Positions 36,001 through 39,000 of a stretch of DNA of 64,000 bases are shown here, in pieces; the stretch's first letter is position 1, and each line of letters starts with the position of its first letter. The position numbers are program-made. The stretch lies in assembly GCA_035221665.1 (NCBI GenBank), contig CM069143.1:10230001-10294000 (forward strand), in the 5' to 3' direction. Source of the DNA: Okamejei kenojei. Taxonomy: Eukaryota.

Positions 36001-39000
36001 ATGTACAATTATATCACAGACATTGGCGGTCACTCGAAACGTGTATGACTGTCCTCTCATGGAGGACGCCTGTGCGTGACTTTGTTTAACATGGGGAGAC
36101 TGGTGCACAGACAGCCACCGCATGGTCCTTGACAGATCTGGGTCAGGATCCAGTGGCATGGAGTCCAAGATGGCCGGGGACCCTTTTCTGCTGCAGCCTC
36201 CATGCGCCTTCCCAGCCGTTATGACGCTCCACTAAAGTCAGCCATTGTCCTCCTCTTGATCCACCGTTGAGGCCTTGGTTGGATTGCTCTTTGTCAGAGA
36301 CCTCCCACTCGACCTTACCGCCATGGATGACCCTACTAGGAGCATACCTCCAGACGGCTTCGCTCTCAGGATCTCAGGACCACACAAGCTTCTCCACCAC
36401 GACAAGGTGACAATCCACGGAGAATCACAGACATAATAACCCCTGTTCAATGTGATAACATCTTCACCTATTCAGTCAGCTCATCAGCCAGAAACAAGGG
36501 GCGAATCACATTTTTTGTACACAATACAACTGGAAAGGTGGTCAGTCTGTATATTTTTTAGATAATTGTAACATTGCATTCAGGACTTTGCAACCATCCC
36601 CTCATTCGCAATCTCATACACACTCAGCGATTGAAAAATTGTTGAAAAATTGATAAACAAGATGTATAAAGGTGATGTCAACCTATTGACTGGTTCTCTA
36701 TCTCATTGTATAAGCACTATAAAAATACTGGAATCACTCAGCAGGTCAGGCCATCACTTCATGAAGAGAGAAACAGAGCCATCACTTCATGTCCGAGATC
36801 CTTTGTTACAACTGAATTGTTGGCAGTGTTTCTCTTTCCACAGGGGCTGCCTGACTGGTTGAGTATTTCCAGTCTGTTCTTTATATTTTTTTGAGATTTC
36901 CAGTATCTGTAGCTTATTTTATTTATTTATTACCGCCATCATTCAACATGGATTGTGCAGGCTGTATTTGACTGTTATGTATTCTAAATGTGATATCTTT
37001 CACTAATTGCCCGTTTTGTGTACCGTGCAGATGAGACTCAGCTTGTGATGCCCACGATCAGAACCAGCATTGAGAAGTTCCACATGGCTGGGCAGGTTCT
37101 GCCCCCAGGGTTTCCTGCACCATTCTTATTTGCTGATGGACTCTCTTCAATAGAAACACTTCTAACCAATATTCAGGTAACATTTTAGCACAAACAGAAC
37201 AGTGTAAATGGATTAAGGAGAAGTTAGACACAAAATGCTGGCGTAACTCAGCGGGACAGGCAGCATTTCTGGAGAGAAGGAATGGGTGCCGTTTCGGGTC
37301 GAGACCCTTCTTCAGGAGAAGTATTAGTCCATGTTCAATGCTTTATTGTACTTTACCAAAAACTAAAGTCTGTATCAACCCCAGAGACCAAAACAAGCAG
37401 ATGCTAGCAACTGGGGAAAGAAAGAAGGATCAGGCATATTACCTTTGTAGCAATATTTTAATTTGAGAGTGAGGATTTCTCATCTTGTAATTACAGCAAA
37501 ATTATTATAACTTGCTAGGTATCGACGAACAACAGCGGCAGTAGTAGCAACATGATTTTGTTTGCTCAACCTAAATGTGTCTAGGTGAGTGGAAAAATCT
37601 AGGAGGAGTTGATGGAAAATGGGGAGAATAAAGTGGGATAATGCAAAGGGGTTATTGATGGCTGGTGAGGACTTGATGCGTCTTTTCTCATGCTGAAAAA
37701 GTCTATGACTGATAAATCCAGGAATTTTAATGTTTTTTGTTGGATTACCTTTTTACCGCAAAATATTATGTTAAATCCTCAGCAAATGAAACTATTTTAT
37801 TTGATTTTGAATCCCCCCAAAAAATAGGATAAATAATTACTTCCTTTTATTCAGGGGATCAATTATTGATATAGACTTTTAAAGCTTCAAATATTCTGGG
37901 CAGTTTCATTTCAAGCAGCTCTATTCTATTTCAAGTCATAGTCCTTTGTGAATTAATTGTCATCTTGCATGCCAATGAACATTGCATTTGCTGTTTTCAA
38001 TTCCCCTTACAACTAATGTACATTACAGATCTCCTAAAAGGTACATTTTCTTCATCTACTCAATCTGTAGTGCGCACAGAAATATGTTTCATTCAAAGTT
38101 ATAGAGCAATCTCCCTCTTTATTGATACACAAATACAAGTTGCTGCCATACAGTATCTACCAGTTCCATGCCAGAGATGACCTTATCCATCTTCTGCTAA
38201 CTGCATATATTTGAAACTCTCCAGTTTATTTTAACTTAATGGTTTTGGTTCCCCATCTCTTTACCTTTTACGTTCATTTTTACAAATCCTTATGTGCAAG
38301 GCATCCCTTTCCTTATTGAGTGCAACAAGTGTATGTGGTTGAGAACTGCTGCATAACTTCACCAGCTTTAGTCCTTGTATATATTGGTATGGTCACCATG
38401 GTCCACAGGGAAATAGATTCTTGTGGTCTGTGAAGTCTGCAACACAAAGTGTAAACAGCTTGTCTCTGGCAGAAGGCTTGTGCATTCAGCTTTTTAGCTA
38501 GGGTGGGGGGGGGAGAGAGATTAACCTTTGGTAGAAAATTAAATCACATTTGGAGTGTACTAGATACTGATACATTAGTCTTGCTGCAGTTAGGTACAAC
38601 TGTAAGTTACCTTTCAATTAATTTAAGATTCAAATAACCGTAGCAGTGGCATGGTGGCACAATGGTAGAGTAGCTGCCTTACAGCGCCAGACACCCGGGT
38701 TCAATCCTGACTACGGTTGCTGTCTGTGCAGAGTTTGCACATTCTCCCGGTGACCTGTGTGAGTTTCCTCCGAGAGCTCTGGTTTCCTTCCACACTCCAA
38801 AGACGTGCAGGTTTGTAGGCTAATTGGCTTGGTAAAAATTGTGAATTGTCCTTAGTGTGTGTAGGATAGTGTTAGTGTGCGGGGATTGCTGGTTGGCGTA
38901 GACTCGGTGGGCCGAATGGCCTGTTTCTGCGTTTATCTCTAAACTAAAATAAACAACACTGATACTTTGTGAGATATACGTAGGGATTTGATTACATTTG

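What the first reader, a model, noticed from the sequence alone, without database searches (positions are those of the whole stretch)
36013..36434. Short internally deleted RTE element (SIDE-like) inserted as an intact unit
Seen: a perfect 11-bp TSD encloses exactly 400 bp with an RTE-like head, an RTE-like tail and no RT, tRNA or 5S-derived promoter. The TSD shows that the short form itself was mobilised or that deletion followed insertion. Known analogue: R2 SIDEs of Drosophila, which keep only the ribozyme and 3' UTR. Inference: a non-autonomous family that needs no Pol III promoter and exploits an RTE partner in cartilaginous fish.
Basis: partly seen in the sequence, partly recalled or inferred. 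Interest (0 to 1): 0.65.

Follow-up and report, generated by a model that had tools for sequence, protein, structure and literature searches.

The report
Truncated copy of an unnamed retroposon
A 400-base GC-rich insert flanked by an 11-base duplication is one copy of a poorly known dispersed repeat, most likely an ordinary shortened retroposon insertion and not a complete miniature element.

Summary
ATCACAGACAT occurs at 36013-36023 and 36424-36434 and encloses exactly 400 bp (56% GC in about 41% GC DNA). The insert has no RT, endonuclease, tRNA, 5S or other Rfam match.

The insert is not a private oddity. A HMMER scan with its minus-strand 53-codon frame, plus a follow-up profile search, found seven unnamed predicted proteins that are frame-shifted translations of related copies.

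These copies change the reading:
- The 36423 end is a shared family end. Three ORFs cross it and lose similarity within 1-3 codons.
- The 36024 end is not shared. All four relatives that can be aligned across it continue with shared sequence.

So the 400 bp is the short form of something longer. The simplest account is a 5'-truncated target-primed insertion, sense on the + strand, with its 3' end at 36423.

Nothing I could run shows an RTE origin for either end, an internal deletion junction, or an autonomous partner. The source genome, Repbase and Dfam were not available.

One unexplained item remains: the minus strand starting at 36424 can be drawn as an HDV-like double pseudoknot. This is rare in shuffles, but Rfam does not see it.

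Head-plus-tail non-autonomous RTE derivatives are already well described, so novelty is low.

The parts
36013..36023 (.). Left copy of the target-site duplication, ATCACAGACAT
   Evidence: It lies at the GC step.
36024..36423 (+). The 400-bp insert, a copy of an unnamed dispersed repeat. The sense strand is favoured to be + but is not settled.
   Evidence: Single copy in the window (blastn, word size 7). Seven related translated copies elsewhere.
36424..36434 (.). Right copy of the target-site duplication, ATCACAGACAT. It is CA-rich.
36280..36423 (.). Best-kept block, next to the shared family end at 36423
   Evidence: P0005 aa 13-62 matches 36429..36280 in one frame at 70% identity with no frame shift, while the other 250 nt need several frame changes at 38% identity. 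P0003 and P0007 start matching at 36421.
36057..36245 (-). Minus-strand reading frame used as the probe: ATG at 36245-36243, in-frame TAA at 36221-36219 (Q in P0001, P0002, P0003, P0007, P0008), stop at 36059-36057. Probably not a gene.
   Evidence: The relatives were found through this frame, so its openness in them is a selection effect.
36024..36070 (.). Two adjacent hairpins closed by a short stem at the 36024 end
   Evidence: minus strand -15.4 kcal/mol, z -1.87, 7 of 200 shuffles as good; plus strand -17.1 kcal/mol, z -1.76, 10 of 200.
36280..36424 (-). Candidate HDV-like nested double pseudoknot, unproven. P1 36424..36419 with 36395..36390; P2 36417..36410 with 36287..36280; P3 36408..36406 with 36398..36396; L3 36405..36399; P4 region 36389..36288.
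   Evidence: for..
36364..36379 (.). Two tandem copies of the 8-bp unit TCTCAGGA inside the insert
   Evidence: This is the only tandem repeat in 35900-36550, and there is no simple-repeat or A-rich tail at either end.

Best explanation
The 400 bp is one copy of a dispersed, non-coding repeat family of the non-LTR retroposon type. A LINE reverse transcriptase inserted it by target-primed reverse transcription, which left the 10-11 bp duplication.

The end at 36423 is the family's fixed end and the end at 36024 is where this copy stops short. The simplest reading is therefore that the + strand is the sense strand, 36423 is the 3' end where reverse transcription began, and 36024 is an ordinary 5' truncation.

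Shown: the duplication, family membership, the shared end and the short end.

Inferred: the retroposition mechanism, the orientation, and that the full-length element (a LINE 3' region or a SINE whose head lies further 5') is longer. The partner LINE is unknown.
For: 1) The duplication and the composition step are confirmed.

2) Related copies exist. Phmmer with 36060-36218(-) against 1,835,955,588 representatives gave 6 hits at E<=0.001. Five of these are colinear with the insert (P0001 E 2.9e-21, 80% identity; P0002; P0003; P0005; P0006). A profile search gave 7 proteins at E<=0.001 among 7,533 candidates, adding P0007 and P0008. Each is 1 member on 1 contig, from sources lgn, ena and ncbi, and unnamed.

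3) The 36423 end is shared. Of the 7 relatives, 3 ORFs cross it (P0003, P0005, P0007). All 3 lose similarity within 1-3 codons of it and have flanks different from ours.

4) The 36024 end is short. All 4 relatives that align across it continue. P0005 and P0006 go on for 6 shared codons to a stop. P0007 and P0008 share 34 aligned residues beyond the common motif (shuffle p 0 of 1000). Back-translation places the two continuations at the same offset in 4 of 4 comparisons (p 0.02, 0.02, 0.19, 0.39).

5) The DNA just outside the 36423 end is CA-rich on the + strand in ours. By back-translation of the flanking residues it is also CA-rich in P0003 and P0007 (a run like (CA)n) and, more weakly, in P0005. 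This fits priming on a repeat-like 3' end, which the abstract of PMC6007223 describes for RTE-related retroposons.

6) There is no terminal inverted repeat, and the TG...CA ends and short duplication of an LTR are not seen in the sequence.
Against: - There is no poly(A) or simple-repeat tail between 36423 and the duplication.
- The last 52 nt of the + strand fold no better than shuffles (-6.7 kcal/mol, z +0.53, 149 of 200 as good), whereas stringent LINE 3' ends usually carry a stable hairpin.
- The minus strand at the same end fits an HDV-like pseudoknot layout that shuffles of the element rarely give.
- P0003 and P0007 share flank similarity and may be one locus in two genomes. Independent observations of the shared end are therefore two, plus ours.
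- P0005/P0006 and P0007/P0008 could each be orthologous pairs. The link between the two pairs rests on a back-translation test that is significant for only 2 of 4 comparisons.
- All relatives are known only as protein translations. No DNA of any other copy was seen.
Confidence: 0.55

Rival explanations
1. The minus strand is the sense strand. On this reading the family is a promoter-less non-autonomous LINE derivative. Its 5' end at 36423/36424 is cut precisely out of host transcripts by an HDV-like self-cleaving ribozyme, as in R2, R4, L1Tc and some RTE elements. This copy then has a shortened or alternative 3' end at 36024.
For: The helix layout matches: P1 6 bp, a 1-nt spacer, P2 8 bp, P3 3 bp, a 7-nt L3, with the 3' strand of P1 abutting P3, starting one base outside the insert.

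A loose descriptor hits the first 4 positions in 10 of 4000 dinucleotide shuffles of the element, and a stricter one in 1 of 4000. It is the only hit inside the element on either strand.

In the window the strict descriptor gives 11 start positions on both strands, against 3-11 in 10 shuffles. The coincidence is therefore in where the hit lies, not in how many hits there are.

The unconstrained fold of the first 154 nt uses the P2 pairing. The best-kept, indel-free block in P0005 (36429..36280) coincides with the span from P1 to P2.

A ribozyme would explain a fixed 5' end without a promoter. Passages of PMC3774820, PMC6765202 and PMC5786205 say that such ribozymes occur in RTE and that bipartite derivatives keep the 5' end. 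The 36024 end has a compact two-hairpin fold.
Against: - I wrote the descriptor after seeing the candidate.
- No Rfam family matches, even in a 165-nt search at E<=10.
- The P4 region is no more stable than shuffles (z about 0).
- The spacer between P1 and P2 is a single nucleotide, which gave little cleavage in drz-Agam-2-1 (passage of PMC4908430).
- P1.1 is at best one pair, and the candidate catalytic C sits 6 nt before P2 rather than the usual 4. The expected values are my recall.
- It needs a 3'-shortened copy with a duplication, which target-primed reverse transcription rarely gives, because four relatives run past 36024.
- In P0003/P0007 one P2 pair becomes a mismatch on the minus strand by back-translation (inference).
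Confidence: 0.2
2. One reading: the 400 bp is a complete short internally deleted element, made of the 5' head and 3' tail of an RTE LINE and mobilised as that unit.
For: It has a target-site duplication and no RT, tRNA or 5S. A family exists. Bipartite RTE derivatives are common in vertebrates (passages of PMC5786205 and PMC7245038).
Against: Four of the four comparable relatives continue beyond the 36024 end. No internal junction could be shown. No similarity to any RTE protein part was found. No RTE is present in the window.
Confidence: 0.07
3. It is not a retroposon: a DNA transposon remnant, a solo LTR, or filler DNA with a chance direct repeat.
For: Exact 11-mer repeat pairs at 100-1000 bp spacing are common in the window (46 distinct pairs). 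MuDR-type transposons make 9-11 bp duplications (recalled).
Against: There are no terminal inverted repeats. The ends do not read TG...CA, and an 11-bp duplication is too long for an LTR (the LTR values are recalled). The repeat sits exactly at a homology border and at a composition border.
Confidence: 0.04

Closest known systems
5'-truncated copies of non-LTR retroposons (LINE 3' regions and their SINEs)
   Same: There is a target-site duplication of about 10-11 bp. One end is common to all copies and the other varies. No coding capacity is left, and repeat-like DNA lies next to the fixed end.
   Different: No parent LINE or SINE could be named. No tail lies inside the duplication. The presumed 3' end has no stable hairpin.
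Bipartite, ORF-less non-autonomous RTE derivatives (RTESINE1/2, WALLSI3, MAR4_MD, Bov-A; passages of PMC5786205 and PMC7245038)
   Same: It is short, has no RT and no Pol III head, and would depend on a LINE in trans.
   Different: Here neither end could be matched to an RTE, no internal junction was shown, and one end is not a family end.
R2 SIDEs of Drosophila (PMC3414825, listing and start of abstract) and the CR1-derived SIDE Persaeus of Lepidoptera (PMC6740152, listing and start of abstract)
   Same: The concept matches: an internally deleted non-LTR element that keeps only the ends. The R2 SIDEs keep a 5' HDV-like ribozyme.
   Different: R2 SIDEs sit in 28S rRNA genes, but this site is AT-rich unique DNA with no rRNA match. 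The window's CR1-like copies share nothing with the insert.
HDV-like self-cleaving ribozymes at the 5' ends of R2, R4/Dong, L1Tc and RTE elements (passages of PMC3774820, PMC6765202, PMC3185411)
   Same: The order and lengths of helices P1, P2 and P3 match, and the motif starts at the element border.
   Different: There is no covariance-model match, and P1.1 and the J4/2 joining strand (the single strand between P4 and P2 that carries the catalytic C) are non-canonical. P4 is very long (102 nt) and unstable. There is no activity or covariation data.

Membership tests
Bipartite (SIDE-like) non-autonomous RTE derivative | Both ends match the 5' and 3' ends of an autonomous RTE-clade LINE | not testable with these tools
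   No source genome, Repbase or Dfam was available. Within reach there is no match in the window, no RTE-type ORF among 150 of 159 window ORFs, no RTE-like motif in six-frame translations, and no long protein among the phmmer hits.
Bipartite (SIDE-like) non-autonomous RTE derivative | Many copies of the same length share both ends and one internal junction | tested here: not met
   The 36423 end is shared (3 of 3 ORFs that cross it), but the 36024 end is not (4 of 4 comparable relatives continue). The apparent extra segment in P0001/P0002 failed shuffle tests. The evidence comes from only 7 translated copies.
Bipartite (SIDE-like) non-autonomous RTE derivative | No RT or endonuclease coding sequence | tested here: met
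   Pfam found nothing in 11 ORF pieces. The searches were empty.
RTE-mobilised retroposon | The duplication starts with T about 10 nt downstream of a T run, and there is a microsatellite-like 3' end (abstract of PMC6007223) | tested here: inconclusive
   This is a single site. On the + strand the duplication starts with A, and TTTATTT lies 15-21 nt upstream. There is no tail inside the duplication, but CA-rich DNA follows the 36423 end.
SINE (Pol III head) | A head derived from tRNA, 5S or 7SL | tested here: not met
   ARAGORN found none and Rfam found none. If the copy is 5'-truncated, a head could lie in the missing part.
R2 SIDE | Insertion at the R2 site of the 28S rRNA gene | tested here: not met
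   There is no rRNA match in the window. The flanks are AT-rich and unique.
HDV-like ribozyme | Nested double pseudoknot: P1 of 6-7 bp, a short spacer, P2 of at least 5 bp, and P3 abutting the 3' strand of P1 | tested here: met
   Helix lengths are from section 16 of PMC3774820 and passages of PMC4908430; the 3-bp P3 is recalled.
HDV-like ribozyme | Conserved core (P1.1, a catalytic C in the J4/2 strand between P4 and P2) and a match to the family models | tested here: inconclusive
   No Rfam match. P1.1 has at most one pair, and the C lies 6 nt before P2 (sequence; expected values recalled).
HDV-like ribozyme | Self-cleavage, or covariation in the helices | not testable with these tools
   No DNA of other copies was available, and this needs bench work.

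The most novel reading that the evidence does not exclude
The family is a promoter-less non-autonomous retroposon of a non-mammalian vertebrate. Its fixed end at 36423/36424 would be made by an unusually large HDV-like ribozyme (102-nt P4) on the minus strand, so that any host transcript running through a copy releases a mobilisable RNA. This copy would then carry an alternative, internally primed 3' end.
Probability: 0.15. Interest if true: 0.55.

Novelty: new member of a known kind. Interest (0 to 1): 0.2.

Why it matters
As it stands, this is routine repeat annotation: a truncated copy of a family that a repeat library of the source genome would probably name.

It would matter modestly if the minus-strand pseudoknot is a working ribozyme. 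HDV-like ribozymes heading non-autonomous retroposons are documented mainly in insects, trypanosomes and a few RTE families. A vertebrate family defined by one would give a simple test system for co-transcription, self-cleavage and trans-mobilisation.

Tried and rejected
1) Whole-insert folding. Neither strand beats shuffles (z +0.58 and +0.65).

2) Protein searches with other frames.
- 36146-36373(-) had no candidate.
- 36001-36231(-) against longer proteins had 18 candidates, none at E<=1.

3) ESM Atlas.
- P0001: best score 0.77, unnamed.
- The 76-aa minus frame against named clusters: no usable hit.
- This dropped my idea that this frame is a decayed LINE ORF2 C-terminus.

4) A 20-base exact scan of bacterial and archaeal genomes, looking for host contamination. 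It gave 5 MAG contigs, and none extends beyond 20-21 nt, so they are chance matches.

5) A zinc-finger-like stretch I thought I saw in P0001/P0002, and an 'extra segment' that our copy lacks.
- Pfam finds no finger.
- Tail comparisons are not significant (p 0.18-0.69).
- The supposed match of P0002 to our last codons is not significant.
- Both claims are withdrawn, and note 2 is corrected by note 3.

6) P0004 (1035 aa) is left out of the relatives. It is a tandem-repeat protein that matches only residues 26-50 of the query, in 13 stretches.

7) The listing of cluster members could not be made.

8) Two papers on HDV-like ribozymes (PMC3256349, PMC3308841) are not held.

9) Strand choice from wobble pairs in P2, by back-translation. 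P0005 favours the minus strand and P0003/P0007 favour the plus strand, so no verdict.
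Full report
THE OBSERVATION

The 11-base word ATCACAGACAT lies at 36013-36023 and again at 36424-36434, with exactly 400 bp between.

The enclosed DNA is 56% GC against 41% in the flanks, with CpG observed/expected of 0.55 against 0.34. GC steps from 0.33 to 0.55 at the left border and from 0.55 to 0.40 at the right border.

An exact 11-mer repeat is weak evidence on its own. The window holds 46 distinct exact 11-mer repeat pairs at 100-1000 bp spacing, and shuffles gave a mean of 18 eleven-mer pairs. It becomes convincing because the two copies sit at a homology border and at the composition step, as described below.

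The immediate flanks (35430-36012 and 36435-37200) are unique in the window, and the insert has no second copy in the window.

WHAT THE INSERT LACKS

- No tRNA.
- No Rfam family at gathering score in the window.
- Nothing credible at E<=10 in 35800-36650 or in 36270-36434.
- No Pfam family in 11 of the 20 ORF pieces listed over the region. The one hit, SYNE1 at E 0.039, is far below its cut-off.
- No tandem repeat or A-rich tail at either end. The only array is two copies of an 8-bp unit at 36364-36379.
- No terminal inverted repeat.

Neither strand of the whole insert folds better than shuffles.

A Pfam scan of 150 of the window's 159 ORFs of at least 75 aa found only two RVT_1 fragments (56172-56621 and 61684-62565, +) and one ALKBH8_N match. 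I left out the three ORFs in the insert, which one search had already scanned, and six at 61698-63932. The RVT_1 fragments belong to a repeat that recurs through the window and that I read as CR1-like (the name is recalled).

No RTE-like motif appears in the six-frame translation (the motifs were recalled).

RELATIVES

Two word-based protein searches with minus-strand frames found nothing.

A full phmmer scan with the 53-codon minus frame 36060-36218 against 1,835,955,588 representatives gave 6 hits at E<=0.001. One of them, P0004, is a 1035-aa tandem-repeat protein matched in 13 stretches to residues 26-50 only, and I set it aside. The other five are P0001 (80% identity, E 2.9e-21), P0002, P0003, P0005 and P0006.

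A profile search added P0007 and P0008. That search gave 7 proteins at E<=0.001 among 7,533 candidates. Each is one sequence on one contig, unnamed, from sources lgn, ena and ncbi.

Local tblastn shows that these are frame-shifted translations of DNA colinear with the insert on its minus strand:

| Relative | Residues | Window coordinates |
|---|---|---|
| P0003 | aa 34-150 | 36421..36075 |
| P0005 | aa 13-149 | 36429..36015 |
| P0007 | aa 48-174 | 36421..36042 |
| P0008 | aa 1-66 | 36245..36048 |
| P0001 | aa 59-113 | 36230..36066 |
| P0002 | aa 27-109 | 36311..36067 |

P0001 aa 19-51 also matches a third frame further up.

They carry no Pfam domain (run on P0001-P0006) and look like gene-caller ORFs over a repeat, not like genes. 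Our copy has TAA where five relatives have Q.

The cluster look-up that might have given names could not be made.

THE TWO ENDS ARE NOT EQUAL

Three relatives have ORFs that cross the 36423 end. In all three, similarity stops within 1-3 codons of it and the flanks differ from ours. P0003 and P0007 resemble each other in the flank as well, so they may be one locus in two genomes.

At the 36024 end, the four relatives that can be aligned to our last codons (P0005-P0008; shuffle p 0.002, 0, 0.016, 0.002) all continue:
- P0005 and P0006 share six more codons up to a stop.
- P0007 and P0008 share 34 aligned residues beyond the common motif (score 115, p 0 of 1000).
- Back-translating the two kinds of continuation puts them at the same offset in 4 of 4 comparisons (p 0.02, 0.02, 0.19, 0.39). 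They are therefore probably the same DNA read in two frames, and so part of the element rather than flank.

P0001 and P0002 share a different-looking tail with each other (p 0.001). I could not place it relative to the others (p 0.18-0.69).

I first read that tail as an extra zinc-finger-like segment that our copy had lost, and read P0002 as ending where ours does. Neither claim survived the shuffle tests or Pfam, and I withdraw both.

WHAT IT MOST LIKELY IS

A duplication of 10-11 bp, one fixed end, one short end and no coding capacity together describe an ordinary product of target-primed reverse transcription. Synthesis starts at the element's 3' end and often stops early. On that logic the + strand is the sense strand, 36423 is the 3' end and 36024 is a 5' truncation.

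The DNA just beyond 36423 is CA-rich in our copy. By back-translation of flank residues it is also CA-rich in P0003/P0007 (a run like (CA)n) and, weakly, in P0005. This fits priming on a repeat-like 3' end, which the abstract of PMC6007223 reports for RTE-related retroposons. The same behaviour is known for other LINE clades (recalled), so it does not identify the partner.

Three things weigh against this reading:
- There is no tail inside the duplication.
- The + strand's last 52 nt fold no better than shuffles.
- There is the pseudoknot coincidence described next.

THE UNEXPLAINED COINCIDENCE

Read on the minus strand from 36424, the sequence can be drawn with the helix order of an HDV-like ribozyme:
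- P1: 6 bp
- spacer: 1 nt
- P2: 8 bp, to a site 130 nt downstream
- P3: 3 bp
- L3: a 7-nt loop
- the 3' strand of P1 directly following P3

I wrote the descriptor after seeing the candidate. Its helix lengths follow section 16 of PMC3774820 and passages of PMC4908430. The P3 length and the L3 and J4/2 sequence conditions are recalled. (J4/2 is the single strand between P4 and P2 that carries the catalytic C.)

- An early version of the descriptor gave 58 start positions in the window.
- The final loose version gave 94.
- The strict version gave 11, against 3-11 in ten shuffles.

So the motif is not rare in number. What is rare is its position. In 4000 dinucleotide shuffles of the element itself, a hit at the first four positions occurred 10 times with the loose descriptor and once with the strict one. 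The real element has no other hit on either strand.

The block that P0005 keeps without any frame shift (36429..36280) spans the same stretch as P1 through P2.

Against the ribozyme:
- Rfam sees nothing, even in a 165-nt search at E<=10.
- The 102-nt P4 region is no more stable than shuffles.
- The single-nucleotide spacer is the length that gave little cleavage in drz-Agam-2-1 (passage of PMC4908430).
- The model needs this copy to be short at its 3' end, which target-primed reverse transcription rarely gives.

I put this rival at about 0.2.

COMPARISON WITH WHAT IS KNOWN

Passages of PMC5786205 state that ORF-less non-autonomous LINEs made of only the 5' and 3' parts are reported for RTE, Ingi, Vingi and R2. 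They name RTESINE1/2, WALLSI3, MAR4_MD and Bov-A, and note that such elements usually keep the LINE's 5' end, possibly because of a 5' ribozyme. Passages of PMC7245038 call them common for RTE.

R2 SIDEs (PMC3414825) and a CR1-derived SIDE (PMC6740152) I saw only as search listings with the start of the abstract.

For membership in that kind:
- Met: no RT.
- Not met on the seven copies available: same-length copies with both ends shared.
- Not testable: ends matching an autonomous RTE.

It is not a SINE in the strict sense, because it has no Pol III head, although a head could lie in a missing 5' part. It is not an R2 SIDE, because there is no rRNA context.

WHAT STAYED UNCHECKED

- The source genome, Repbase and Dfam. 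Copy number, the full-length element and the partner LINE are therefore all open.
- The metagenome and viral contig collections, which were closed.
- The supplementary figures of PMC5786205, which hold the sequences of the known bipartite RTE families and could show whether this family is already catalogued.
- The host taxon. 'Cartilaginous fish' was not tested by any search.

My literature searches were by topic, not by sequence. I therefore make no claim that the family is undescribed.

No contig was taken for human, and no spliced model was involved.

VERDICT

This is a real, duplication-flanked insertion of a non-coding repeat that has relatives elsewhere. It is most likely an ordinary truncated retroposon copy. 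The SIDE-like RTE reading is not excluded, but it is unsupported in its defining points and is not new in kind. Interest is low (0.2). The pseudoknot at the fixed end is the one item worth a cheap follow-up.

Noticed in passing
window 3687-4133(-), 10311-10706(+), 32927-33298(-), 34872-35333(+), 56172-57057(+), 61684-62565(+): There are many fragments of one LINE family. RVT_1 is called in two of them, and a repeated C-terminal ORF is shared by all. The 3' parts are 75-93% identical to each other. I read the family as CR1-like from memory.
   Followed up: partly
window 4865-5365(+): A 167-aa open frame is rich in Cys pairs and ends in a YIGET-type stretch. I read it from memory as the GIY-YIG endonuclease part of a Penelope-like element. 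Pfam gave no hit at E<=0.01.
   Followed up: no
window 57512-57829(-): An ORF matches Pfam ALKBH8_N (PF09004; E 3.8e-05; 23.6 bits against a cut-off of 21). It is probably a repeat-derived fragment and not a host gene.
   Followed up: no
window 37209-37315, with matches at 9550-9742, 26481-26555, 29131-29225, 19056-19150, 5694-5778, 51712-51791 and 63372-63425: A short repeat of about 95 bp occurs about nine times in the window on both strands at 81-89% identity. It may be a SINE core or a MITE.
   Followed up: no
protein P0004 (not in the window): A 1035-aa predicted protein is made of about 58-aa tandem units. It shares a seven-residue word and a Cys pattern with the insert's minus frame (13 matched stretches; E 4.4e-09 inflated by the repeats). 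It might be a satellite derived from a related element, or a chance match.
   Followed up: partly
window 1130-1566, both strands: Long open frames run over a G/C-rich low-complexity stretch (runs of Gly on one strand and Pro on the other).
   Followed up: no
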